From IMG/VR virus record IMGVR_UViG_2537561875_000003: a DNA stretch of 64,000 nucleotides, one strand, 5' to 3'. The notes below the pieces were generated by a model that ran no database searches, was not told the origin of the DNA, and saw nothing but the letters and a program-made list of their open reading frames with translations. The stretch's first letter is position 1. Every line of letters starts with the position of its first letter. Source of the DNA: a virus (lineage: Duplodnaviria; Heunggongvirae; Uroviricota; Caudoviricetes). Of the stretch, positions 3,936-64,000 are shown one piece after another. The position numbers and the translations under genes are program-made.

Positions 3936-4232
3936 ACATACTTGCTCGGTAATTTCGACATCAAGGCATCAACAAACTTATATAAAACTCTGTCAATGGC
4001 GCTTTTAATGCACCATTTGCAGATCTTTATAATTACGCCTGCTTGCCAATTACAGGGCCAATCCGGATGCACTTCTTAGTGAGCCAACCCCAGCGCAAAA
4101 GCACTGAAAGAATCAGCAGCGGCTTCATGTATGGGCGAAGCGTAATTTCCGCCATTAGGATTCCAGTGGTGCGCATATGGCTTACCTCGTTGTGACATTA
4201 TCGAGCCACCTCTTGAAGTGGCTCTGTAATGC

Positions 4233-4508
4233 CTATAGCAACGGACTGCACAAAGCGCCGGTGTTGCGAGGACGGCGGCCGAAAATATTAACTTGCTCGC
4301 GCACGCTTTCACTGCACATTCGCTCTACGATTCGCCAGTCAGCCTTTTCAGGCGAGGCTTTCACGGAGACTGCGGAAATGACCCGCTCCACCACCCGGCG
4401 CAACTTACTAACCGCTCGGCTCACCGAGATGTCTTCAAACGAAATGGTAGTGATAATTGCCCAGCAAGCCGAGATGAAGCGCGAACACATATGACGCAAA
4501 CTGACCAT
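4233..4508 (-). CDS. Hypothetical protein
   Basis: 91 aa. Strong RBS (CAGGAGTAAATCC-ATG) upstream of the ATG at 4508. Confidence 0.35.
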   Translation of the reverse strand: MVSLRHMCSRFISACWAIITTISFEDISVSRAVSKLRRVVERVISAVSVKASPEKADWRIVERMCSESVREQVNIFGRRPRNTGALCSPLL

Positions 4509-4543
4509 GGATTTACTCCTGTTTGTTGATTTTCAGTGCCAGG

Positions 4544-5029
4544 TTATTTAAGGCACTGCGTGGTGATGTATTCCTGCAGCGCCCTCAGGGCTGTTTGGTC
4601 GCTGAGGATTCCGGACCGGATACCGAGAACGTTTCGTCCAGCAACTGCAGAGAGTTCGACGGTGGCATCATCGCCCACGCTGGCGGCGCCGGCGGTTTGG
4701 GTTGCGGCTGACACTGGACACTTGCCTTTGACGAGCACCCGACCACCATTATCAAGCTTGCGCTGCAGAGCATCATTTTCAGCTTTTGCATCGGCTAATT
4801 CCTTCGTGTATTTAGCATCAAGCGCTGCGACGTCACGCTGTCGAGTCTGCATGTCCGCGATCGTGTCATTTGCCAGGCTGAGTTGCTCAGTCACTTTGTC
4901 CCGCTGCCTTTTGAACTCGGTGGCATTGCTGTGGTAGTGACTGGCCAGCCAGCCGAGGCTGACTATCAGGCAGATCACAATGGCGCTGATAATGGCGGTT
5001 AACCGGCTCATTTCTGCCCCCACAAACAA
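4544..5029 (-). CDS. Rz-type i-spanin
   Basis: N-terminal TM, coiled-coil body, position after the endolysin, and an embedded +1-frame lipoprotein ORF. Confidence 0.75.
4585..4791 (-). CDS. Rz1-type o-spanin (embedded)
   Basis: 68 aa; lipobox LMVVGC; proline-rich mature part; fully inside the Rz gene in another frame. Confidence 0.7.
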
Positions 5030-5517
5030 ACTTCACGCTCAATCTCGCGGCGAGTTACCAGGCCTTTCCACTGTTTGCCCTTGGCATAGGTCCAGCGGCG
5101 CAGCTGATCGCAGGCACCTTTCTGGTCGCCCTGGTTGATTTTGCGCAGCAGCGTGGAGGCCTGGAAGTTACCAGCACCGACGTTATAGGCGAATGAGTAG
5201 AGGGCCCCGCGCATTGTTACGGGGATCGGCTTCTGGATGTACGGATCAATCTGGCGGGCGACGGTGTTCAGGTCTTTATTGAGCAGCGCACGGCATTCAG
5301 CCTCGGTGTACTTCTTGCCGAGCATGATGTCTTTGCCAGTGTGGCCATAGCAGACAGTCCAGACGCCTACCACATCCTGATAAGGGTTGTATCGCACACC
5401 TTCAAGACCATCGTTACCGGTTGGGCCGGTGATGAGCGCAGAGGCAATGGCTATGGCGCCACCACCGCCGGCGATCACGCCAATCAGTTTTTTCCTCATT
5501 GATGGCGTCATGCTCAC
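5008..5517 (-). CDS. SAR endolysin (GH24 T4-type lysozyme with N-terminal signal-anchor-release domain)
   Basis: Gly/Ala-rich N-terminal TM ([20 protein letters not shown]) followed by the GH24 catalytic E/D/T region ([23 protein letters not shown]). Confidence 0.75.
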
Positions 5518-49575: not shown

Positions 49576-49806
49576 TCATCGCGTAACCCTGCCGGTTAGT
49601 TGCGGGCAGTTAGCCTGCACTGATTTGTTTTGCGCCAGGATGTCACGCTTGGTCTGCTTATCCAGCACGTCGATATCGTGGTCGGTCAGGTAGATGACCC
49701 TCACCCAGCTGCAGGCCGTATCAACGACTACCGGGGCGGGTAAATCTTTCGCGCAGCTCGCGATCAACATCGTCATCGCCCATACGCTTAACGTCTTCCT
49801 GTACAT
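49576..49806 (-). CDS. o-spanin (Rz1-like lipoprotein), overlapping the i-spanin
   Basis: Lipobox LIASC; 76 aa. Confidence 0.6.
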   Translation of the reverse strand: MYRKTLSVWAMTMLIASCAKDLPAPVVVDTACSWVRVIYLTDHDIDVLDKQTKRDILAQNKSVQANCPQLTGRVTR

Positions 49807-49996
49807 CGCTTGCCTCTTTCACAACTTCCGCCTTACGTTCTGCCGCGGCGACGGTGGCGGCGGCGTTCTCTTCGGTACGCTGCTGATCGGCTTTGGCTTC
49901 TGCCTTACTGGTCCCGCGTGAATGACCAATGCCGAACGCACCAGCGATAGCACCCAGGATGACAACCACCAGCCCAGCAATAATTTCAAAGCTCAT
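49721..49996 (-). CDS. i-spanin (Rz-like)
   Basis: N-terminal TM plus a charged coiled coil. Confidence 0.6.
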   Translation of the reverse strand: MSFEIIAGLVVVILGAIAGAFGIGHSRGTSKAEAKADQQRTEENAAATVAAAERKAEVVKEASDVQEDVKRMGDDDVDRELRERFTRPGSR

Positions 49997-50340
49997 TGCT
50001 GCGGATCCTTCAGTTCGTCGGCCTTCTCTTTCAATGCTGGCTGGCGCACGTATTGCGATAGCACGGCCAGCACCACCAGCGCCGGGCTAATCAGTGCAAC
50101 GATGTTTGGCGGCAGGATATTTTTGATATCCGGCGGCAGCATCGCCCAGGCGTGCAGCGCAGCATCCGGGAACGACTGCGCCCATACACCAACCAGCGCG
50201 CCGATAGCTCCCAGCTTTACAGACCACGTTTTCAGCAGCAAGCTGGCATGCCCTACGAACTCCAGCCGGGTATATTTGCGAAGAAGTAACAGAACGAGCA
50301 CAGCCACCAGCACAAGCAAAGCGAAAATAATCATCTTCAC
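49993..50340 (-). CDS. Membrane lysis-accessory protein (LysB/antiholin-like)
   Basis: 115 aa with multiple TM segments, between endolysin and spanins. Confidence 0.4.
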   Translation of the reverse strand: MKMIIFALLVLVAVLVLLLLRKYTRLEFVGHASLLLKTWSVKLGAIGALVGVWAQSFPDAALHAWAMLPPDIKNILPPNIVALISPALVVLAVLSQYVRQPALKEKADELKDPQQ

Positions 50341-50876
50341 ATGACACGCTCCTTAACCCAGCCGTAGAGAAAATCCTCGTTGGCTTCGCGGCCCTCCGCC
50401 AGTTCGAGGTATCTGGCACCCTGGCTGCAGTTCAGCGCACGCAACAGAACCTGTTCACCCTCTTTCCCGCGGGCTGAAAGGTATCCCTTAAGCGCGGTGA
50501 TGGTTCGGGGGCCAATGGCGCCATCCGGGATCAGATCGGGGTATAGCTTCCCGCGCATGTTCAGAGCAGTGAGCCAGCGCTGGAAAAACTTACTGGCGAC
50601 GCTGGGCCCCATGTTCACGCCAGTGTCGCAAAGCTCATCCGCCAGTAACGTAGACAAACTCGCTACCTGGTCGAACCGGGGGCCGGTCCAGTAATCGCTC
50701 AGCAGGATTTGCTTTGCTGTTTCCCTTGGCAGGTTTCGCATATCACCGGTGTAGCCATGCGCACGGGCGGTGGTTTGCGTGATGCCCCAGCGGGTTGGCC
50801 CGCCTTTATCAGAGGGGTGATCGACATAACCACCCTCTTTGCCGAGGATCCCCTCGATAATCTGGTCTGCTGTCAT
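50337..50876 (-). CDS. Endolysin (GH108 N-terminal domain plus peptidoglycan-binding domain)
   Basis: GH108 motifs (EGGYVDHPSDKGGPTRWGIT). Confidence 0.75.
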   Translation of the reverse strand: MTADQIIEGILGKEGGYVDHPSDKGGPTRWGITQTTARAHGYTGDMRNLPRETAKQILLSDYWTGPRFDQVASLSTLLADELCDTGVNMGPSVASKFFQRWLTALNMRGKLYPDLIPDGAIGPRTITALKGYLSARGKEGEQVLLRALNCSQGARYLELAEGREANEDFLYGWVKERVM

Positions 50877-51184
50877 GGCGCCTTGACTCCGGTAATGCGC
50901 TCCCAGAAATAGGTCAAAGCAACAGAACCCATTGCCCCGCTAATCCCGGAAGTGGCCAGTATCATGTAAATGCTCAGTCCGCTTTCAATGCTCACCAGGC
51001 CAGCAATAACGCCGGTAAACCCTGAAACCACCATTTGGGCAAGAGCATTGATCAAGCTCCATGTTGCCTTGCTCTGCTTCACATCTATCAGGTAGCGGAC
51101 AAGTCCACCCCAGCAAGCAATAATCAGCAGAACCAGCCAGGACATCCCGGCAATGCTCTCTTTGTCTTGCATACGTTTAGCCAT
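50873..51184 (-). CDS. Holin
   Basis: 103 aa, about 3 TM, upstream of and coupled to the endolysin. Confidence 0.6.
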   Translation of the reverse strand: MAKRMQDKESIAGMSWLVLLIIACWGGLVRYLIDVKQSKATWSLINALAQMVVSGFTGVIAGLVSIESGLSIYMILATSGISGAMGSVALTYFWERITGVKAP

Positions 51185-56866: not shown

Positions 56867-57541
56867 GTGGCCATGGCAAACATGATTCAAGAACTTCTGA
56901 AGGAAAAAGGGTGGAGTAAAGCCGAGCTGGCTCGTCAGTTAGGGGTTAGCACGCAGACGGTTGTCTACTGGACGAAGGGAGACACTGTCCCAAGGGGTAA
57001 GAGATTAGCCCAGCTTTCTGAAATCAGTGGATACCCACAATCCTGGTTTCTGGGTGAGGGACAACCCGCCACCTTCCCTGCGTCCGCTCAAAAAGGAGAT
57101 ACTGATAGCGTTAAATTCAAAGTATTAGATATTGAATTCAGTTGTGGTGATGGAGTTAGCGTGAAAAGTGACTTCATTGATGTGGTCCGCTCCATAGAGT
57201 TAGACCCCGAGTACGCCCGTCAAGTTGTAGGCAACAGACCCTTCAAGAACATTGAGATTGGCAATGCCAGGGGTGATAGCATGTCGCCAACAATAGCACC
57301 GGGTGATTTATTATTTCTAGATAAAACAATAACATACTTCGATGGTGACGGGATTTATGCTTTTTGTTTTGAAGGTGAATGTTATGTAAAGAGGCTGCAA
57401 AAAATAGGCAGCAAAATTGTAGTATTATCTGACAACTCGAATTACCAATCTTGGAGCATCGAGAAGGATGCCTTGGATATGCTCTACATCCAGTCAAAAG
57501 TTATCTCATCAGTTCCTTTCAACATTAACAGATTCGGTTAA
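56867..57541 (+). CDS. cI: CI repressor (HTH plus S24 peptidase)
   Basis: XRE HTH (WSKAELARQLGVSTQTVVYW) and S24 motifs (GDSMSPTI). Confidence 0.8.
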   Translation: MAMANMIQELLKEKGWSKAELARQLGVSTQTVVYWTKGDTVPRGKRLAQLSEISGYPQSWFLGEGQPATFPASAQKGDTDSVKFKVLDIEFSCGDGVSVKSDFIDVVRSIELDPEYARQVVGNRPFKNIEIGNARGDSMSPTIAPGDLLFLDKTITYFDGDGIYAFCFEGECYVKRLQKIGSKIVVLSDNSNYQSWSIEKDALDMLYIQSKVISSVPFNINRFG

Positions 57542-57552
57542 TTATTGATAGA

Positions 57553-57583
57553 CAACGGGCTTTTGCCCGTTCCTCCCTTTTAA
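57553..57583 (+). terminator. Terminator after cI (aacgggcttttgcccgtt)
   Basis: Hairpin followed by a T-rich stretch. Confidence 0.4.
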
Positions 57584-58524: not shown

Positions 58525-58890
58525 ATGAGTAACTTAATTACTACCTATCGCCGCCGAATTTTAAAAGCAGCCTTGTTACGCCACCAGCGAAAGACTGGGA
58601 GTAGCTTACTTGTCATTAAGCTTAACAAGGGTGGGATTAGTACTATCGAATTAACTGAGATTCTTCTTGATGGATTGTTGCGGAAATTCGAGCGACTGGC
58701 GCTCGGTGAATACGGAAATGTGGAAGGTGTGAAAGTTCTTAAGGGAATTTACAGCAACTCTGTTGATGTTAATGGCAGCGGCGAATTCCTCACAGAAAGC
58801 GGGAAAGAGTTAATCGACGAGCTTATTTCTGAACTGGTGGAGTTCGTCAAAAAGCAGAAACCAGTTACTGCGGAGTCCGGCAATGAATAA
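58525..58890 (+). CDS. Hypothetical protein
   Basis: 121 aa. Confidence 0.35.
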   Translation: MSNLITTYRRRILKAALLRHQRKTGSSLLVIKLNKGGISTIELTEILLDGLLRKFERLALGEYGNVEGVKVLKGIYSNSVDVNGSGEFLTESGKELIDELISELVEFVKKQKPVTAESGNE

Positions 58891-59137
58891 CCAGCAAACA
58901 ATGCTCTATCAGGGTGTGCTGATCCCCCGCCCCGTGTTGAACGTGGATCTGCATGTCCTCCCTGATTTTACCGGGCGGGTAGTCGTGCACATCGAGAACG
59001 GGAGGGTGATATGCGACCGCCAGCTGTTCGACGACGAGCACATTTGCACACTGGCCACGTTTATCGAAATGGCGCGAGAAATGGAGCTGAGATTTGAGGA
59101 GGTAGCTGGTGGCACTGACAGCGATACGAATTCCTGA
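58883..59137 (+). CDS. Hypothetical protein
   Basis: 84 aa. Confidence 0.3.
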   Translation: MNNQQTMLYQGVLIPRPVLNVDLHVLPDFTGRVVVHIENGRVICDRQLFDDEHICTLATFIEMAREMELRFEEVAGGTDSDTNS

Positions 59138-59323
59138 GAGGGTTCACCTGCAGGCGCTGCAGGTCCTGCTGCGGTATCGGCGCCGGAGGATATTCCCGCG
59201 GCGAATGCGCCGCACCGGCTACCTCAGCCTGAAGGTTAACCCACGCTGGCGCCTGTTATCGAAAGACGATGGCCGGAACTGGGAAGTTATGAGTCATGAA
59301 ACCTATAACCGGGAGAAAGACAA

Positions 59324-59749
59324 ATGATCGACAACCGCACTGCCAGCGCTATTGATCTGGCATTACAGAAGCACCACACGCCAGTCGGCGACCTGTACGC
59401 CGCTATTCGTCACGGCCGCATGAAGCGTTGCTTTAGCCGGGATACCGCAATTCGTTACCTGGCGTTCTTCATGACCTCCCGAGCTTTTGGGCGTTCTGGT
59501 TTCAAGCAGCGTTATCCGGACGTGCAGGTAATTCATCCACTGAATCCAGAACTGAGTAGCTGGCAACGTGGCGCCGTGACCACTGAGTATTTCAACGCCC
59601 ACCAGCGCACCGTTCGCCGGCTGCGTCGCATCCTCGCCCGCAAAAGAGAAATGCAAAAGTGGTGCAAAAAGTGGGATGCCATGCACGACCGCTACGTGAA
59701 AGAGCGCGAAGAACTACAGGCCTGTAAGCCTGGAGGGCTGAGTCGATGA
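59324..59749 (+). CDS. Hypothetical basic protein
   Basis: 141 aa. Confidence 0.35.
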   Translation: MIDNRTASAIDLALQKHHTPVGDLYAAIRHGRMKRCFSRDTAIRYLAFFMTSRAFGRSGFKQRYPDVQVIHPLNPELSSWQRGAVTTEYFNAHQRTVRRLRRILARKREMQKWCKKWDAMHDRYVKEREELQACKPGGLSR

Positions 59750-59940
59750 TTGCTTACTTACGCGTTGTTCTATCGGTGGTGATTGTCGCCAGCGTTTATG
59801 GGCTGTTCGTTCCGATCCTCATTTCGATGAAGGACACGACAGCAGTTATATCCGGTTTTGCCCTGGCGATTCTGACCCCGCCGTGCATCTACGCCATTTG
59901 TAAGGGTCTTGCACTTACCGTAACGAAGGAAAAGAAATGA
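59746..59940 (+). CDS. Small 2-TM membrane protein coupled to the SPFH gene
   Basis: GGAGGG RBS; 64 aa with two hydrophobic helices; ATGA overlap with the next gene. Confidence 0.45.
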   Translation: MIAYLRVVLSVVIVASVYGLFVPILISMKDTTAVISGFALAILTPPCIYAICKGLALTVTKEKK

Positions 59941-60872
59941 AAAATGCAATTATGGCTTCAATTATCGCACTCTCTGCCATCGGCCTTGTTGGTTGCGATC
60001 GAGTTGAGCCCGGCAACGTGGGTATCAAGGTGAATAAGTTGGGTGACGATAAAGGCGTTGGTGAAGTCGTCGGAGTCGGCCGCTACTGGACCGGCTGGAA
60101 TACCGAGGTTTATATCTTTCCGACCTTCAAGCAGATGAAAACGTATGATGACGCTTTCAACTTCCAGATGAGCGATGGCACCACCATCGGCTACCACATC
60201 GGGGTCGCGTACAAGGTTGATCCGACCAAAGTTACAACTGTTTTTCAGACCTACCGTAAAGGCGTGGACGACATCACCGACACCGATCTGCGGCAGAAAA
60301 TTGCTGACGCCCTTAATCGTCTCGCAAGCCGGATGAGCACCGATAAATTCATTGACGGCGGGAAAGCTGAGCTGCTTGAAAACGCACTGAAAGAGATCCA
60401 GTCCGATATGGGGCCGGTTGGTATCCAGGTGATCAGCCTTTCTTACGTCGGCCGTCCGGAATACCCGCCGACAGTGATCGAAAGCATCAACGCCAAAGTT
60501 ACGGCAAATCAGAAAACGCTGCAGCGTGAACAGGAAGTTAAACAACGTGAAGCTGAAGCCAACATGTTGCGAGCCGAAGCCGATGGACAGGCGGATGCAA
60601 AGCTGAAACTGGCTGAAGCAGAAGCAAAGTCTATCCAGATCCGTGGGCAAGCCATGCGTGAGAATCCTGAAGTACTGCAACTGGAGGCCATCAACAAATG
60701 GAATGGCACCCTGCCCCAGTACATGACCAGCGGAACAAACACCCCGTTTATCCAGGTTAAATGCTCCACCAGCCCGGCGACAAGCCGGGCACATATGAGA
60801 GGTTCGCAATGCTTCAGAATATGCTTAACCCGGAACCAACCTCAACAGGGATCCGGTCTGGAAACCGGGTGA
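59937..60872 (+). CDS. SPFH/band-7 (flotillin/HflK-like) lipoprotein
   Basis: Lipobox LVGC and an SPFH core (GNVGIKVNKLGD...YHIGVAYKV) followed by a coiled-coil Ala/Glu-rich region. Confidence 0.65.
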   Translation: MKNAIMASIIALSAIGLVGCDRVEPGNVGIKVNKLGDDKGVGEVVGVGRYWTGWNTEVYIFPTFKQMKTYDDAFNFQMSDGTTIGYHIGVAYKVDPTKVTTVFQTYRKGVDDITDTDLRQKIADALNRLASRMSTDKFIDGGKAELLENALKEIQSDMGPVGIQVISLSYVGRPEYPPTVIESINAKVTANQKTLQREQEVKQREAEANMLRAEADGQADAKLKLAEAEAKSIQIRGQAMRENPEVLQLEAINKWNGTLPQYMTSGTNTPFIQVKCSTSPATSRAHMRGSQCFRICLTRNQPQQGSGLETG

Positions 60873-61387
60873 TAGGCTACTCCGCTGCTATTCGCCTGCT
60901 GGATAACGGTCGCTATGACAAACACCTCGCCGAAGGAATGGAAATTCTGGCCTGCATCATGGAAGCGGTAGAAAGCTGCTGGATCACGCTTAACATCGAG
61001 AAGCAAATCATCGTCTGGCGCTGGTTGCTTGCCGCAGTATTCATTACTGAGGAACTGGAGAAAAACGGAACTGTCGACGTTCCGAATGATACTGGCGGTG
61101 TTGATACTGCTGTTATCTATTCCAGCAAGCATGGCGCCATTAGCGTTTACCCAGGGCCGGAACGCTTTGCGCTCGCAAACCACATTGAGGCCGGCGCCAT
61201 TGAGAAGTACGGACCTGATGTTGGCCCGCAGCTGGCGCTGCGGATGTATCAGGACATGGTTGTTGCTGATGAAGAACACGGCTTCAGGTTGTCGGCTATG
61301 GGCCGGGAAGGTTTCAACCTTCTGCATGACGGCTTTATAGAACAAATCCAGACCGAAGGTGTGCCAGAAGCACCGATTATGCATTGA
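60809..61387 (+). CDS. Hypothetical protein
   Basis: About 192 aa. Confidence 0.35.
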   Translation: MLQNMLNPEPTSTGIRSGNRVIGYSAAIRLLDNGRYDKHLAEGMEILACIMEAVESCWITLNIEKQIIVWRWLLAAVFITEELEKNGTVDVPNDTGGVDTAVIYSSKHGAISVYPGPERFALANHIEAGAIEKYGPDVGPQLALRMYQDMVVADEEHGFRLSAMGREGFNLLHDGFIEQIQTEGVPEAPIMH

Positions 61388-62118
61388 GGGGAATGATGAT
61401 GAATAACTTGATCACCAACAAACCATCCATGACCAGCCTTGAGATCGCCGAGCTGGTAGAGAAACGCCACGACAACGTGAAACGTACCATTGTGACACTG
61501 GCTTCAAAGGACGTTATCCGGTCTCCTCAAATTGAGGTTCTCGAAAGAATCAATAACTTAGGATTTGCCGTCAATGATGAGGTTTACAAATTCGCAGGTG
61601 AAGAAGGAAAACGCGACAGCATCATTGTGGTCGCGCAACTTAGCCCCGAGTTTACCGCCAGACTGGTAGATCGCTGGAAGGAACTGGAAGAAGAACGAAC
61701 CCGGCCAAAATCACAGGCAGAGCTTATTGCGGAAATGGCCCTGCTGAATGTTGAGCAGGAGCGCCGCCTGTATCAGGTAGAAGAACAGGTCGAGGCTGTA
61801 GCTGAAACGGTTGAGAACATTAAGCGTGGCAATATGCGGGCCGGGTATGTCGGTTATCGCCAGGTGGTCGCAAAAAGCGGTATGACCGATGCCAAGTGCC
61901 GAAACCTTGTTAACGCATACCGTATTCCGACCGATACACACGAGTTCATGACCCCTGACGGCCTGCTCTCCCGCAGGGCTATTGTGGAACTTGAGCCGTT
62001 CATGAAGGCATTCCGCCAGATGATGGCAGAAGCCGAGCCCCGCGGCACCCGCTGGTACCACCCGAAGATGGGACTATTTCAGGCAATCGGATGGGAGGAA
62101 AAACATTGTGAAGATTGA
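61384..62118 (+). CDS. Rha-family phage regulatory protein
   Basis: N-terminal pRha motif (MTSLEIAELVEKRHDNVKRTI). Confidence 0.6.
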   Translation: MRGMMMNNLITNKPSMTSLEIAELVEKRHDNVKRTIVTLASKDVIRSPQIEVLERINNLGFAVNDEVYKFAGEEGKRDSIIVVAQLSPEFTARLVDRWKELEEERTRPKSQAELIAEMALLNVEQERRLYQVEEQVEAVAETVENIKRGNMRAGYVGYRQVVAKSGMTDAKCRNLVNAYRIPTDTHEFMTPDGLLSRRAIVELEPFMKAFRQMMAEAEPRGTRWYHPKMGLFQAIGWEEKHCED

Positions 62119-62329
62119 GTTTCACGATCAAGGGGCGGTTTCGGCCATCACGGTCACCAGCACCGTATTTGAGTTCCGCCGGCACAATCGGGCGATTGAT
62201 GTCGCACTGTTCCTGACGCCCGAGATGACCAGCCAGAGCAGCGGCTTTTTCATTATGAAGACGATTTTAAGTGGCAAGACACATCACGCGCTGCGTGCCT
62301 ACAAACATCTAATCCGTGAGGCGAAGTGA
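62108..62329 (+). CDS. Hypothetical protein
   Basis: 73 aa. Confidence 0.3.
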   Translation: MKIEFHDQGAVSAITVTSTVFEFRRHNRAIDVALFLTPEMTSQSSGFFIMKTILSGKTHHALRAYKHLIREAK

Positions 62330-62462
62330 TGGACTGGCCAACAGCGTTTTGCACCGTCGGTTGTGCGTTTGCCATTGCCTGGTGCTTAAGGATCTAATCG
62401 ATGAATAGTGAATTTGAATTGTGGCGCCACTGTCGTGGCCTGAAAGTGGTGTGAGGTTGAAA

Positions 62463-62645
62463 ATGGCGACTCGATATATTGGCATTAAAGAAATGTGCAC
62501 GCTGACCGGAAAGAGTAAGCCGACCTTGTGGAGGATGTACGCGAAGAGGAAGGAATTTCCGGCACCAGAGAGAACGCCCAGCGGAATTTTTCTCGGATGG
62601 CCCGAAACGGTTTACGAAGCCTGGGTAAACAAAGCAAAAACCTAA
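62463..62645 (+). CDS. AlpA-family excisionase-like regulator
   Basis: YIGIKEMCTLTGKSKPTLWRM...FPAP...LGW matches the AlpA family. GAGG RBS. Confidence 0.65.
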   Translation: MATRYIGIKEMCTLTGKSKPTLWRMYAKRKEFPAPERTPSGIFLGWPETVYEAWVNKAKT

Positions 62646-62713
62646 TACTTGACCCGTTACCTGACCTGCTCATGTAGCGGGTTTTCTTATTATAATAGTT
62701 AACTTATTGATTA

Positions 62714-62763
62714 TTAATGGTACGCCCTACAGGGTTCGAACCTGTGACCTACGGCTTAGAAGG
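62714..62763. repeat. att core copy (attR-like) inside the 3' end of the intact tRNA-Arg
   Basis: Identical to 24281-24330. Confidence 0.85.
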
Positions 62764-62794
62764 CCGTTGCTCTATCCAGCTGAGCTAAGGGCGC
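62718..62794 (-). tRNA. argU: tRNA-Arg (anticodon UCU), argU-like chromosomal integration target
   Basis: 77-nt cloverleaf: GCGCCCT acceptor, D-loop AGCTGGATAGAGC, anticodon stem-loop ACGGC-CUUCUAA-GCCGU, T-arm ACAGGTTCGAACCCTGT, ACCA end. Close to E. coli argU. Confidence 0.9.
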
Positions 62795-63133
62795 CCTGAG
62801 AAGCGAGTGCTTCGCGGAGTGAAACGCGTGGAATTATACGGTCCACGTCGGTCGAGTCAATCCATTTTGCCAGGAAACTGCGGAGCTTATACGACGCTGG
62901 CGAAATATCCCCCACCAACTGTACAAGAAGCATACCGCCGGGGCTAATGCGCGCGTAAATCGACTCAGTGGCCAGGCGCAACGCACCTATAACCATGTAA
63001 TAACCATGGTCATAACAGGCTAAATTAGCCTCAGACAGGATAAAACAGCAAACGAGGACTGACAGCGAGGCCCGCTTCTGACAAAATATCCTCATCCCCC
63101 TTTCGTAAAGATACAGATGGAATCCTCTCTCTG

Positions 63134-64000
63134 ATGGCAGCAAAAATTATTGACGGTAAAACGATTGCGCAGCAGGTACGCTCTGAGGTTGCGGAAAAAG
63201 TGAAGGCTCGCGTTGCGGCCGGAAAACGCGCCCCTGGGCTGGCCGTCGTGCTGGTCGGCAGCAACCCGGCCTCGCAGATTTATGTCGGCAGCAAGCGCAA
63301 AGCATGTGAAGAAGTGGGCTTCGTCTCCCGCTCTTACGATCTCCCGGAAACCACCAGCGAAGCCGAGCTGCTGGAGCTTATCGACACTCTGAATGCCGAT
63401 AAGACCATCGACGGTATTCTGGTTCAGCTGCCCCTGCCGGCAGGGATCGATAACGTCAAAGTTCTCGAGCGCATCGCGCCGGATAAAGACGTCGACGGCT
63501 TCCATCCTTACAACGTTGGCCGCCTGTGCCAGCGCGCGCCGCGCCTGCGTCCGTGCACTCCGCGCGGTATCGTGACCTTGCTGGAACGCTACAATATCGA
63601 CACCTACGGCCTCAATGCGGTGGTCATTGGCGCTTCCAATATCGTCGGTCGCCCGATGAGCATGGAGCTGCTGCTGGCCGGCTGCACCACCACCGTCACC
63701 CACCGCTTTACAAAAAACCTGCGCCATCATGTCGAAAACGCCGACCTGCTGATCGTCGCGGTGGGCAAACCGGGCTTTATTCCTGGCGAGTGGATTAAAG
63801 AAGGGGCGATTGTGGTCGATGTCGGCATCAACCGTCTGGAAAGCGGCAAAGTGGTCGGCGACGTGGTGTATGAAGATGCCGCCGAACGCGCGTCCTACAT
63901 CACCCCGGTTCCCGGCGGCGTTGGCCCGATGACCGTCGCCACCCTGATCCAGAACACGCTGCAGGCGTGCGAAGAGTATCACGACGTTGAGGAGGCCTGA
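63134..64000 (+). CDS. folD: Bifunctional methylenetetrahydrofolate dehydrogenase/cyclohydrolase FolD (complete, 288 aa)
   Basis: Near-identical to enterobacterial FolD along its full length ([19 protein letters not shown]...[15 protein letters not shown]). Confidence 0.9.

What the first reader, a model, noticed from the sequence alone, without database searches (positions are those of the whole stretch)
59746..60872. Coupled small 2-TM protein plus SPFH/band-7 lipoprotein in the early-left operon of prophage B
SPFH proteins (HflK/C, flotillins, QmcA/YqiK) organise membrane microdomains and regulate proteases. A phage-borne copy (lipobox LVGC, SPFH core, long Ala/Glu coiled coil) is translationally coupled (ATGA) to a 64-aa 2-TM protein. 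The pair resembles an SPFH-partner membrane module. Here it sits in the prophage region that usually carries lysogenic-conversion, exclusion and anti-defence genes. HflKC controls FtsH turnover of lambda CII, so a phage SPFH could also modulate the lysis-lysogeny decision.
Basis: partly seen in the sequence, partly recalled or inferred. Interest (0 to 1): 0.65.

Follow-up and report, generated by a model that had tools for sequence, protein, structure and literature searches.

The report
Phage SPFH lipoprotein with membrane partner
A Klebsiella prophage carries a small two-helix membrane protein gene overlapping a gene for a lipid-anchored SPFH (band-7) scaffold protein; the pair is real and travels together through many unrelated phages, but it is an ordinary copy of an already annotated family whose function nobody has tested.

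Summary
59746-59940 encodes a 64-aa two-TM protein (PHROG 1130). It overlaps by ATGA an SPFH/Band-7 lipoprotein (Pfam PF01145, E 1e-31; PHROG 200; lipobox LVGC). The protein is already in NCBI as WP_004177213.1, 'SPFH domain-containing protein', Klebsiella pneumoniae.

One correction: the family protein is 275 aa. In this window the stop codon is TGC (60762-60764) where relatives have TGA or TAA. That adds a 36-aa out-of-frame tail running to 60872.

The pairing is not a local accident. In 222 of 229 fetched viral loci (121 distinct protein pairs), a partner homologue lies directly upstream of the SPFH gene. This includes lambdoid, P2-like, P1-like and SSU5-like phages, Pseudomonas and Burkholderia phages, and virulent N4 (gp19-gp20). 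Flanking genes vary. Both genes are under purifying selection (SPFH dN/dS 0.006).

The predicted fold matches cage-forming SPFH proteins such as HflK/C, prohibitin, erlin and stomatin. The protein fails the HflK/HflC equivalog models, and the partner has no NfeD domain.

Because virulent phages carry the pair, a role specific to the lysis-lysogeny decision is unlikely. The best model is a mobile early-expressed cassette that builds a periplasm-facing SPFH ring around its 2-TM partner on the inner membrane. Its physiological output is unknown. Interest is moderate.

The parts
59746..59940 (+). Gene for the 64-aa partner protein. It has two predicted transmembrane helices, basic termini and a short neutral or acidic loop, giving a predicted N-in/C-in hairpin with the loop in the periplasm.
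   Evidence: ORF. phrog_1130 E 1.4e-27 over the full length. Hydropathy. Homologues aligned. dN/dS 0.14-0.17 against Fraca and phiP27. No Pfam family.
59797..59835 (+). Conserved motif Y18-D30 (YGLFVPILISMKD) at the periplasmic end of TM1 and in the loop. Pro23 is invariant across enterobacterial, N4, SSU5, Pseudomonas and Burkholderia phage partners.
   Evidence: Alignment A3. The same motif is in GAP31_161, L157 and L159.
59925..59930 (+). Shine-Dalgarno-like GAAGGA, 6 nt before the SPFH start codon and inside the 3' end of the partner gene.
   Evidence: Read directly from the sequence.
59937..60764 (+). SPFH/Band-7 lipoprotein gene at its canonical extent: 275 codons plus the position of the family's stop codon.
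   Evidence: Pfam PF01145 E 1.2e-31. phrog_200 E 1.7e-112. All 80 close relatives are 275 aa. The exact 311-aa protein is WP_004177213.1.
59937..59996 (+). Lipoprotein signal peptide with lipobox L-V-G-C. The Cys20 codon is at 59994-59996. Asp at +2 and Arg at +3 follow.
   Evidence: Sequence. Cys20 is invariant in alignments A2 and A4.
60000..60560 (+). SPFH (Band 7) alpha/beta domain, residues 22-208.
   Evidence: Pfam envelope. AF2 model strands and helices at residues 20-175. Foldseek probability 1.00 to HflC, HflK, prohibitin, erlin and stomatin.
60468..60662 (+). Single long Ala/Glu-rich helix, residues 178-242. It corresponds to the wall-forming coiled-coil helix of SPFH cages.
   Evidence: AF2 secondary structure, block pLDDT about 80-91. 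Full-length alignments to cage-forming SPFH chains.
60696..60716 (+). C-terminal motif K254-W-N-G-T-L-P260. K254, W255, G257 and P260 are invariant from Klebsiella to Staphylococcus, Caulobacter and crAss-like phage homologues.
   Evidence: Alignment A2 invariant columns.
60762..60764 (+). TGC (Cys) codon at the position where relatives have the stop codon (TGA or TAA). This is a stop-loss allele.
   Evidence: DNA alignment A1. 80 of 80 relatives have TAA or TGA here. Three distinct 311-aa variants exist in K. pneumoniae.
60765..60872 (+). A 35-codon extension plus its TGA stop; with the TGC codon at 60762-60764 this adds 36 residues (CSTSPATS...GLETG). It is an out-of-frame read of the 5' end of the next gene and is not part of the family protein.
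   Evidence: The phrog_200 match ends at residue 284.
60772..60790 (+). GC-rich hairpin GCCCGGC-GACAA-GCCGGGC just after the canonical stop. No T-run follows it.
   Evidence: Conserved in Klebsiella phage ST512-KPC3phi13.5, Fraca and phiP27 although Fraca and phiP27 carry different downstream genes. Present in 40 of 80 close loci. Folds in the MFE and centroid structures.
56867..57571 (+). Context: CI-like repressor gene followed by a terminator-like site (57554-57571). This marks the head of the leftward early region.
   Evidence: phrog_4 and phrog_6201. Terminator scan.
62421..62794 (.). Context: the end of the operon and of the prophage. It holds an excisionase-like gene 62421-62645 (+), a terminator-like site 62663-62683 (+) and tRNA-Arg(TCT) 62718-62794 (-) next to folD.
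   Evidence: phrog_66.. ARAGORN. folD ORF 63134-64000 (the folD name is from my own reading of the translation).

Best explanation
The two genes form one horizontally mobile phage cassette, and the window holds an ordinary, slightly damaged copy of it.

**Proposed mechanism**
1. The SPFH protein is exported, lipid-modified at Cys20 and held on the periplasmic face of the inner membrane.
2. Like other SPFH proteins with the same layout (SPFH domain, one long helix, conserved C-terminal segment), it assembles into a ring or cage over a patch of membrane.
3. The 64-aa partner is made in step with it from the overlapping reading frames. It sits in that patch as a hairpin, with its conserved P-x-L-I-S-x-x-D loop facing the SPFH domains. 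This would be analogous to QmcA-YbbJ (26:26) or HflK/C-FtsH.
4. The cassette lies in the leftward early operon, downstream of the CI-like repressor gene, and has no promoter-like site of its own. It is therefore probably made early in lytic growth.
5. The same cassette serves virulent and temperate phages of many hosts under very strong purifying selection. So it most likely acts on a conserved property of the host inner membrane, insulating or reorganising it during infection. It is unlikely to act on a phage-specific protein or on the lysogeny decision.

**Shown:** domain identity, lipobox, fold class, pair conservation, mobility, selection, presence in virulent phages and operon position.

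**Inferred:** inner-membrane retention, oligomerisation, direct contact with the partner, early expression and the physiological output.
For: - **Identity:** SPFH domain and family membership.
- **Anchor:** The lipobox Cys is invariant.
- **Fold:** AF2 model with mean pLDDT 79.5 shows an SPFH domain plus a 65-residue helix. Foldseek probability is 1.00 to HflC 7vhq_G (E 2.7e-14), prohibitin 8rrh, HflK, erlin, stomatin, flotillin and QmcA-YbbJ 8z5g. These are all ring or cage formers (PMC12624060 abstract; PMC13086221 on the 26-heterodimer YbbK-YbbJ cage).
- **Pairing in fetched loci:** The partner is adjacent in 222 of 229 loci, giving 121 distinct protein pairs. Spacing is an overlap of 4, 8 or 20 nt, or a 3-nt gap.
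- **Pairing in annotated phages:** It is also seen in P88 gp11-12, SSU5 061-062, N4 gp19-20, D14B and phiE125 gp44-43. In phiP27 and in P1-like contigs the partner ORF is unannotated. In GAP31 it lies two genes upstream.
- **Mobility:** Flanks differ, with at least 13 downstream and at least 8 upstream gene families.
- **Selection:** SPFH dN/dS is 0.006 (4 nonsynonymous against 102 synonymous changes). The partner is 0.14-0.17.
- **Topology of the partner:** It has basic termini and a neutral or acidic loop, interpreted with the positive-inside rule (established knowledge).
- **Natural fusion:** A natural in-frame fusion of the two proteins exists (P0088, 347 aa).
- **Expression context:** No promoter-like site lies near the pair, and the operon is bounded by terminator-like sites.
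Against: - Nothing here shows oligomerisation, contact between the two proteins, or localisation.
- Asp at +2 is the enterobacterial inner-membrane retention signal. The Arg at +3 may weaken it (my recollection of the lipoprotein-sorting literature, not checked here).
- A prophage-encoded 'HflK/C-like' protein of Pasteurella was found in outer-membrane vesicles (PMC9872710). Its homology to this family was not verified.
- The C-terminal 25 residues of the model have low confidence.
- The simple promoter scan could miss a real promoter.
- In GAP31 one ORF separates the two genes. In phiEa21-4, crAss-like phage, Kayvirus and U47 the neighbouring small membrane ORFs are not detectably homologous to the partner.
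- The physiological output is a guess by elimination.
Confidence: 0.45

Rival explanations
1. Superinfection exclusion. The periplasm-facing lipoprotein and its 2-TM partner would block a step of DNA entry by other phages at the inner membrane. Known examples of this kind are T4 Imm/Sp, the TP-J34 Ltp lipoprotein and HK97 gp15.
For: - The pair sits in the early-left region of a prophage.
- It has the right topology for a lipoprotein on the outer face of the cytoplasmic membrane.
- In N4, the gene directly upstream of gp19-gp20 is annotated 'superinfection exclusion, similar to P22 gp17'.
- In Vi01-like phage SH19, the SPFH gene neighbours an annotated superinfection exclusion protein (PMC3220722).
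- The precedents named in the statement come from my own knowledge.
Against: - Exclusion proteins are usually fast-evolving and phage-specific. This SPFH protein is 80-85% identical between lambdoid, P2-like and P1-like phages, with dN/dS 0.006.
- There is no PADLOC hit.
- There is no Pfam hit of any kind for the partner.
- The neighbouring annotations are by similarity only, not tested.
Confidence: 0.25
2. HflK/C mimic. The phage SPFH protein would bind or displace host HflK/C around FtsH and change FtsH proteolysis. In temperate phages this would shift CII-type lysis-lysogeny control.
For: - The closest solved relatives by sequence are HflK chains (E 1.4e-3). HflC is the top Foldseek hit.
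- The weak NCBIfam hits are all to HflC or HflK.
- The predicted periplasmic orientation matches HflK/C, which protrude into the periplasm (PMC13086221).
- FtsH is universal, which would fit the broad host range.
Against: - The protein fails the HflC and HflK equivalog cut-offs by a wide margin.
- There is one SPFH gene, not a K/C pair, and a lipid anchor replaces the TM helix.
- Foldseek does not separate HflK/C from prohibitin, erlin or stomatin.
- The cassette is in virulent phages that make no lysogeny decision.
- There is no evidence of FtsH contact.
Confidence: 0.12
3. Lysogenic-conversion or virulence lipoprotein. It would be made in the lysogen, reach the outer membrane or vesicles, and act on the animal host (for example as a TLR2 agonist) or on envelope properties.
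For: - A prophage-encoded 'HflK/C-like' SPFH protein of Pasteurella multocida, 25-35 kDa, is found in outer-membrane vesicles. It activates TLR1/2, and its deletion attenuates virulence (PMC9872710).
- The +3 Arg might weaken inner-membrane retention (own knowledge).
- PHROGs files the partner under 'moron, auxiliary metabolic gene and host takeover'.
Against: - No promoter-like site was found near the pair, and it lies inside the early operon downstream of the repressor's terminator.
- The cassette is conserved in virulent phages and in phages of environmental hosts.
- A partner with only a six-residue periplasmic loop could not reach an outer-membrane protein.
- Homology of the Pasteurella protein to this family was not checked.
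Confidence: 0.08
4. Lysis-timing module. The 64-aa protein, with two TM helices and a charged C-terminus, would be a holin or antiholin-like protein that the SPFH protein holds in check.
For: - The partner has the anatomy of a class II holin (the comparison is from my own knowledge).
- In Kayvirus Sb-1 the SPFH gene follows the endolysin gene. In a crAss-like phage it lies near a peptidoglycan hydrolase gene.
- One of nine partner homologues gave a sub-threshold Pfam holin hit (E 0.038).
Against: - The prophage has a complete lysis cassette elsewhere: holin 50873-51184, endolysin 50337-50876 and Rz-like spanin 49721-49996.
- The pair sits in early or middle regions in lambdoid phages and in N4.
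- The partner hits only phrog_1130 and no holin PHROG.
- The single Pfam hit is at chance level.
Confidence: 0.05

Closest known systems
Phage 'SPFH domain protein / lipoprotein' family (PHROG 200) with its upstream 'membrane protein' (PHROG 1130). Examples are N4 gp19-gp20, SSU5 061-062, P88 gp11-gp12, phiP27 L05 and phiE125 gp44-gp43.
   Same: Direct homologues of both genes in the same order and the same tight spacing. Identity of the SPFH protein is 99% to the Klebsiella phage ST512-KPC3phi13.5 protein, 85% to phiP27, 82% to P88, 75% to SSU5 and 61% to N4.
   Different: This copy has lost its stop codon and is 311 aa instead of 275 aa. Database names for the family are inconsistent or wrong ('serine protease', 'lipoprotein', 'HflK family'). 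The small gene is often unannotated.
E. coli HflK/HflC-FtsH complex
   Same: SPFH fold followed by a long helix. It is the best Foldseek hit and the only sequence-level PDB hit. The extracytoplasmic orientation is predicted to be the same.
   Different: It is not an orthologue (27 bits against a cut-off of 134). There is one SPFH gene, not two paralogues. It has a lipid anchor instead of an N-terminal TM helix and a much shorter helical region. Its partner is a 64-aa hairpin, not a AAA+ protease. No link to FtsH has been shown.
SPFH-NfeD operons (E. coli QmcA/YbbK-YbbJ, PDB 8z5g; YqiK-YqiJ)
   Same: An SPFH gene is paired in an operon with a small membrane protein. In QmcA-YbbJ the two build a 26:26 cage. 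QmcA is also a structural match (E 9.9e-8).
   Different: The partner has no NfeD/OB-fold domain and no Pfam match at all. QmcA-YbbJ faces the cytoplasm, whereas this protein is exported.
Pasteurella multocida prophage protein PM0222 ('HflK/C-like')
   Same: A prophage-encoded SPFH protein of about the same size. It is the only phage-associated SPFH protein with experimental data that I found.
   Different: It is reported in outer-membrane vesicles and as a TLR1/2 agonist and virulence factor. Its sequence relationship to this family was not tested here.

Membership tests
SPFH / Band 7 superfamily (Pfam PF01145) | Sequence match to the Band_7 profile above the curated gathering score | tested here: met
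   110.6 bits against a cut-off of 23.6, E 1.2e-31, profile positions 2-176 of 176.
SPFH / Band 7 superfamily (Pfam PF01145) | Alpha/beta SPFH fold followed by a long helix, as in solved SPFH assemblies | tested here: met
   AF2 model with pLDDT 79.5. Foldseek probability 1.00 to HflC, HflK, prohibitin, erlin, stomatin, flotillin and QmcA over 245-300 columns.
SPFH / Band 7 superfamily (Pfam PF01145) | N-terminal membrane anchor | tested here: met
   Signal peptide plus lipobox LVGC, with an invariant Cys20. This is a lipid anchor rather than the more usual TM helix or hairpin.
SPFH / Band 7 superfamily (Pfam PF01145) | Assembly into a large ring or cage on a membrane | not testable with these tools
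   Only a monomer could be modelled, and no coordinates or PAE are returned.
HflK / HflC (FtsH modulators; TIGR01933, TIGR01932) | Score above the equivalog cut-off | tested here: not met
   HflC 27.2 bits against 134.4. HflK 18.4 bits against 159.4.
HflK / HflC (FtsH modulators; TIGR01933, TIGR01932) | Two adjacent SPFH paralogues forming a hetero-oligomer | tested here: not met
   Only one SPFH gene is present. The neighbours are a 64-aa hairpin protein and a phrog_1515 protein.
HflK / HflC (FtsH modulators; TIGR01933, TIGR01932) | Binding and regulation of FtsH | not testable with these tools
   Needs co-purification or substrate half-life assays.
SPFH-NfeD operon | Partner carries an NfeD (OB-fold) domain | tested here: not met
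   No Pfam family for the window protein at E up to 0.1. No NfeD hit in any of nine homologues at E up to 1. The protein is 64 aa, almost all membrane-embedded.
SPFH-NfeD operon | SPFH gene and membrane partner are adjacent in one operon and conserved together | tested here: met
   222 of 229 loci. The same holds across annotated phages.
PHROG 200 + PHROG 1130 phage cassette | Both proteins match the family profiles and lie head to tail | tested here: met
   E 1.7e-112 and 1.4e-27. 4-nt overlap.
Class II holin / pinholin | Encoded in the lysis cassette next to the endolysin and matching a holin family | tested here: not met
   The lysis cassette is at 49721-51184 on the other strand. No holin PHROG or Pfam match for the window protein.
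Known anti-phage defence systems (PADLOC-DB 2.0) | Significant match of either protein to a defence-system model | tested here: not met
   Only a chance-level PbeC hit (E 0.042, 10 bits) for the SPFH protein and nothing for the partner.

The most novel reading that the evidence does not exclude
The cassette would be a third, so far undescribed kind of SPFH-partner system, alongside HflK/C-FtsH and SPFH-NfeD. It would be a lipid-anchored, periplasm-facing SPFH cage with its own 64-aa hairpin client. Virulent and temperate phages across Proteobacteria would spread and use it to take control of, or shield, the host inner membrane. Possible actions are caging FtsH or another conserved membrane machine, blocking DNA entry, or blunting membrane-depolarising defences.
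Probability: 0.3. Interest if true: 0.7.

Novelty: new member of a known kind. Interest (0 to 1): 0.4.

Why it matters
For this window it matters little. The genes are one copy among many (the partner's 90%-identity cluster alone includes a member seen on at least 1,000 contigs). They are already labelled 'SPFH domain-containing protein' and 'hypothetical protein' in public databases.

The family is more interesting than the instance.
- It is a two-gene membrane cassette kept almost unchanged in lambdoid, P2-like, P1-like, SSU5-like and N4-like phages, and in Pseudomonas and Burkholderia phages.
- The SPFH gene is under very strong purifying selection (dN/dS 0.006).
- No function has been tested. 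A 2026 paper still says the reason a phage carries it 'remains unclear' (PMC13239085).

SPFH cages have recently been solved for HflK/C, prohibitin, erlin, stomatin, flotillin and QmcA-YbbJ. A small homo-oligomeric phage version with a minimal client could be a simple system for asking what such cages do. It could also reveal a general phage strategy at the inner membrane.

Tried and rejected
**Searches and checks that led nowhere or were rejected**
- **E. coli origin:** A megablast of 59300-61400 against all complete E. coli genomes found nothing. The nearest DNA is in Klebsiella prophages.
- **Defence system:** PADLOC gave only chance-level hits.
- **NfeD, T4 Imm-like or holin identity of the partner:** No Pfam family for the window protein. 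Nine homologues gave only scattered single hits with E above 0.01.
- **HflK/HflC orthology:** Rejected on the NCBIfam cut-offs.
- **Own promoter (moron-type expression):** No sigma-70-like site on the + strand near the pair. None was found ahead of the P1-like RCS47 copy either. The scan is crude, so this is weak negative evidence.
- **Hairpin after the stop as an intrinsic terminator:** It lacks a T-run, and the terminator scan did not call it.
- **Literature:** Searches for SPFH with prophage, phage-encoded, superinfection exclusion, anti-phage and N4-like found only annotation-level mentions and the Pasteurella study.

**Corrections and things not attempted**
- **First tallies undercounted the partner:** The first count of the close-relative set gave 78 of 80. 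The four Pseudomonas-type loci L139, L141, L149 and L162 were artefacts of my start-codon finder, and L060 and L228 were cut by a contig end.
- **Modelling the two proteins together:** Not attempted. The structure tool returns no coordinates or PAE, so an interface could not have been judged.
Full report
**1. What is in the sequence**

On the + strand, 59746-59940 is a 64-aa ORF with two hydrophobic segments. Its stop overlaps, as ATGA at 59937-59940, the start of a 311-aa ORF that runs to 60872. A GAAGGA ribosome-binding site lies at 59925-59930.

The long ORF matches the whole Pfam Band_7/SPFH profile (PF01145, residues 22-208, 110.6 bits against a cut-off of 23.6, E 1.2e-31). It also matches phrog_200 'lipoprotein' (E 1.7e-112). 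The short ORF matches phrog_1130 'membrane protein' over its full length (E 1.4e-27).

The N-terminus MKNAIMASIIALSAIGLVG-C is a lipoprotein signal. Its Cys is invariant in 16 diverse homologues and in a second set of 50.

The exact 311-aa protein is in public databases as WP_004177213.1, 'SPFH domain-containing protein [Klebsiella pneumoniae]'. The 64-aa protein is listed as a 'hypothetical protein' of K. pneumoniae. No complete E. coli genome carries this DNA. The nearest matches are Klebsiella prophages at 94.6%.

**2. A correction: this copy has lost its stop codon**

The annotated homologues in Klebsiella phage ST512-KPC3phi13.5, Escherichia phage Fraca and phiP27 are all 828 nt, or 275 aa. 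A DNA alignment shows GTT AAA TGA (or TAA) where the window has GTT AAA TGC, at 60762-60764.

All 80 close viral relatives end at codon 276, 59 with TAA and 21 with TGA. The extra 36 residues are an out-of-frame read of the next gene's 5' end. The phrog_200 match stops at residue 284.

The allele is real rather than a sequencing error. Three slightly different 311-aa variants exist in K. pneumoniae, on about six contigs in all. It is rare against the 275-aa form.

The family C-terminus is uniform. Homologues end within a few residues of ...PF(I/V)xVK. Whether the tail harms the protein is unknown.

**3. Context**

- The pair lies in a + strand operon that starts after a CI-like repressor gene (56867-57541; phrog_4 and phrog_6201) and a terminator-like site (57554-57571).
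- The operon ends with an excisionase-like gene (62421-62645), a terminator-like site (62663-62683) and tRNA-Arg(TCT) at 62718-62794. folD follows.
- The other arm of the prophage is on the - strand. It holds a helicase, a full lysis cassette (holin 50873-51184, endolysin 50337-50876, Rz-like spanin 49721-49996) and a large terminase.
- 'Early-left operon' is therefore a fair description.
- No sigma-70-like promoter was found near the pair.
- The upstream gene (59324-59749) is joined to the small ORF by the same ATGA overlap. Coupling is thus a habit of this operon and not in itself evidence of partnership.

**4. Is the pairing conserved?**

By tblastn the SPFH protein is found in 679 phage records from very different groups. 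They include Klebsiella and Stx prophages, P2-like P88, P1-like phages, SSU5-like phage-plasmids, N4, Seunavirus, Kolesnikvirus, Bruynoghevirus, Burkholderia phiE125, Caulobacter, crAss-like phages and Staphylococcus Kayvirus.

In annotated records, a small membrane protein gene sits directly upstream in these phages:
- P88 (gp11-gp12)
- SSU5 (061-062)
- N4 (gp19-gp20)
- Pseudomonas D14B
- phiE125 (gp44-gp43)

In phiP27 the small ORF is there but unannotated. It is likewise untagged in the Stx phage records. P1-like contigs carry a 78-aa partner ORF that overlaps the SPFH start by about 20 nt; RCS47's own record annotates nothing in that gap. These small proteins are homologous. They share a motif, YG(L/F)x(V/L)Px(L/M)(I/V)Sx(K/x)(D/S), with an invariant Pro at the end of the first helix.

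I then fetched three sets of IMG/VR loci: close relatives of the window protein, Pseudomonas D14B-type, and N4-type (which also brought in SSU5-like and P1-like contigs). I scored them with HMMs built from both alignments. Results:
- 229 loci have a full SPFH gene.
- 222 have a partner homologue ending within -40 to +60 nt of the SPFH start. The overlap is 4 nt in 125, 20 nt in 46 and 8 nt in 7. A 3-nt gap is seen in 39.
- 3 loci are cut by a contig end.
- 4 are not detected by the HMM. Two of these carry motif-bearing membrane ORFs (L157, L159). One has a 38-aa remnant (L144). One, only 26% identical, has a different one-TM ORF (L167).
- Some contigs were fetched twice, so the fairer count is 121 distinct protein pairs.

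In GAP31 the partner homologue lies two genes upstream. In phiEa21-4, a crAss-like phage, Kayvirus Sb-1 and U47 there are small membrane ORFs nearby, but none is detectably homologous.

Around the pair the genes change. There are at least 13 downstream and at least 8 upstream families among the 80 closest loci. The pair therefore moves as a unit.

Other evidence for a real, linked pair:
- Both genes are under purifying selection. For the SPFH gene, window against Fraca gives 4 nonsynonymous and 102 synonymous differences (dN/dS 0.006). For the small gene dN/dS is 0.14-0.17.
- A natural in-frame fusion of the two exists (P0088, 347 aa, 8 member sequences). I give this little weight because it may be a mutation.

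**5. Fold and family**

An AlphaFold2 model built on a 50-sequence alignment has mean pLDDT 79.5. It shows an alpha/beta domain (residues 20-175), one 65-residue helix (178-242), a short helix (244-254) and a low-confidence tail.

Foldseek against the PDB gives probability 1.00, over most of the length, to HflC (7vhq_G, E 2.7e-14), prohibitin, HflK, erlin, stomatin, flotillin and QmcA-YbbJ (8z5g). All of these are ring or cage formers (PMC12624060; PMC13086221). The hits do not single out one subfamily.

By sequence the only PDB hits are HflK chains, at E about 1e-3. The protein fails the NCBIfam equivalog models for HflC (27.2 against 134.4 bits) and HflK (18.4 against 159.4). It is an SPFH protein, but it is not HflK or HflC.

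The partner has no Pfam match, so it is not NfeD. PADLOC finds nothing. BFVD lists many viral 'Band 7' proteins, none with a functional name.

The family has its own invariant C-terminal motif, K254-W255-x-G257-x-x-P260.

**6. Topology (inferred)**

A lipobox means the protein is exported and acylated. In Enterobacteriaceae, Asp at +2 is the inner-membrane retention signal (established knowledge). CDR is kept in the Klebsiella, E. coli and Salmonella phage copies, and N4 has CYDR. As I recall the sorting literature, a basic residue at +3 can weaken retention, so this step is not certain.

The partner has basic N- and C-termini and a neutral or acidic six-residue loop. By the positive-inside rule the loop, with its conserved motif, faces the periplasm. 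That is where the SPFH domain would sit. Such a short loop could not reach the outer membrane. If the two proteins touch, they do so at the inner membrane.

**7. What it most likely does**

The structural reading is reasonably supported. It is a lipid-anchored, periplasm-facing SPFH ring or cage with a dedicated hairpin partner in the enclosed membrane patch. The two are made in matched amounts from overlapping genes and probably expressed early. The physiological output is not known.

Two observations narrow the possibilities:
- The same cassette is in virulent phages (N4, GAP31; distant homologues in Kayvirus and others). A function tied to the lysogeny decision or to lysogenic conversion therefore cannot be the general one.
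- The SPFH protein is extremely conserved across phages that share little else and across hosts. This fits a conserved host membrane target better than an arms-race exclusion factor.

I put 0.45 on a generic host-inner-membrane takeover or shielding role. I put 0.25 on superinfection exclusion. Its support is the lipoprotein precedents and annotated Sie genes next to the SPFH gene in N4 and SH19. The remaining weights are 0.12 on FtsH modulation, 0.08 on a conversion or virulence lipoprotein like the Pasteurella PM0222 case (PMC9872710, homology unverified), and 0.05 on lysis timing.

**8. Novelty and score**

Both genes belong to catalogued families and are annotated in public records. The literature I could search contains only annotation-level remarks. 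One 2026 paper says the reason for a phage SPFH lipoprotein 'remains unclear' (PMC13239085).

I found no description of the near-universal pairing with the small hairpin protein. That is a modest new point about the family, not about this window. The window copy is a new member of a known kind, and one carrying a stop-loss allele.

Interest is 0.4. The instance is ordinary, but the family is a tractable and apparently unstudied SPFH-partner system.

Noticed in passing
window 60762-60764 and 60765-60872: The SPFH gene's stop codon is TGC here, against TGA or TAA in all 80 close relatives. This adds a 36-aa out-of-frame tail with three Cys residues. Three 311-aa variants exist in K. pneumoniae, so the allele is heritable and not a sequencing error.
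   Followed up: yes
window 60772-60790: A GC hairpin, GCCCGGC-N5-GCCGGGC, lies right after the canonical stop. It is kept in Fraca and phiP27, where the downstream gene differs, and in 40 of 80 close loci. No T-run follows, so it is not a standard intrinsic terminator. It may mark the 3' edge of the mobile cassette or stabilise the mRNA. Annotated terminators follow the SPFH gene in phiEa21-4 and CcrSwift, and one lies under the tblastn match in Stenotrophomonas phage Paxi.
   Followed up: partly
window 60761-61387: The downstream gene (phrog_1515) is annotated in relatives as starting at the ATGA overlap (60761). An in-frame ATG at 60809, preceded by GAGAGG, lies beyond the hairpin and may be the real start. 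In GenBank phage records this gene carries the implausible name '2-polyprenylphenol hydrolase related flavodoxin oxidoreductase'.
   Followed up: no
window 62108-63134: The prophage abuts tRNA-Arg(TCT) (62718-62794, - strand) next to folD. An excisionase-like gene (62421-62645) is the last gene, and there is no integrase between it and the tRNA. The close relative Klebsiella phage ST512-KPC3phi13.5 has an integrase at the corresponding end.
   Followed up: no
window 59746-60761 compared with L002 (Fraca) 4078-5093: Synonymous divergence jumps from 0.13 in the small gene to 0.98 in the SPFH gene, while the proteins stay 95% and 99% identical. This suggests a recombination junction near the gene boundary.
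   Followed up: no
P0088 (347 aa, NCBI, 8 member sequences): A natural in-frame fusion of a P1-like-type partner protein with the SPFH lipoprotein. It was probably created by an indel in their 20-nt overlap, and the lipobox is retained.
   Followed up: partly
L003 (phiP27) 3965-4153; P1-like IMG/VR contigs such as L078 26-262; Stx2 phage records: The small partner gene is unannotated in several reference phage genomes; RCS47 (L005) annotates nothing in the matching gap, though I did not confirm the ORF in that record. The SPFH gene is variously mislabelled 'serine protease', 'transposase' or 'HflK family protein'.
   Followed up: yes
L007 (N4) 1362-2786; phage SH19 74,140-75,457 (PMC3220722): In two unrelated virulent phages the SPFH gene lies next to a gene annotated as superinfection exclusion (in N4, 'similar to P22 gp17'). 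The annotations rest on similarity only.
   Followed up: no
window 59109-59749 and 58525-59137: The genes upstream of the pair (phrog_1886, 1525, 340 and 1737) all have unknown function and are chained by 4-nt overlaps. phrog_1886 accompanies the pair in 39 of the 80 closest loci.
   Followed up: partly
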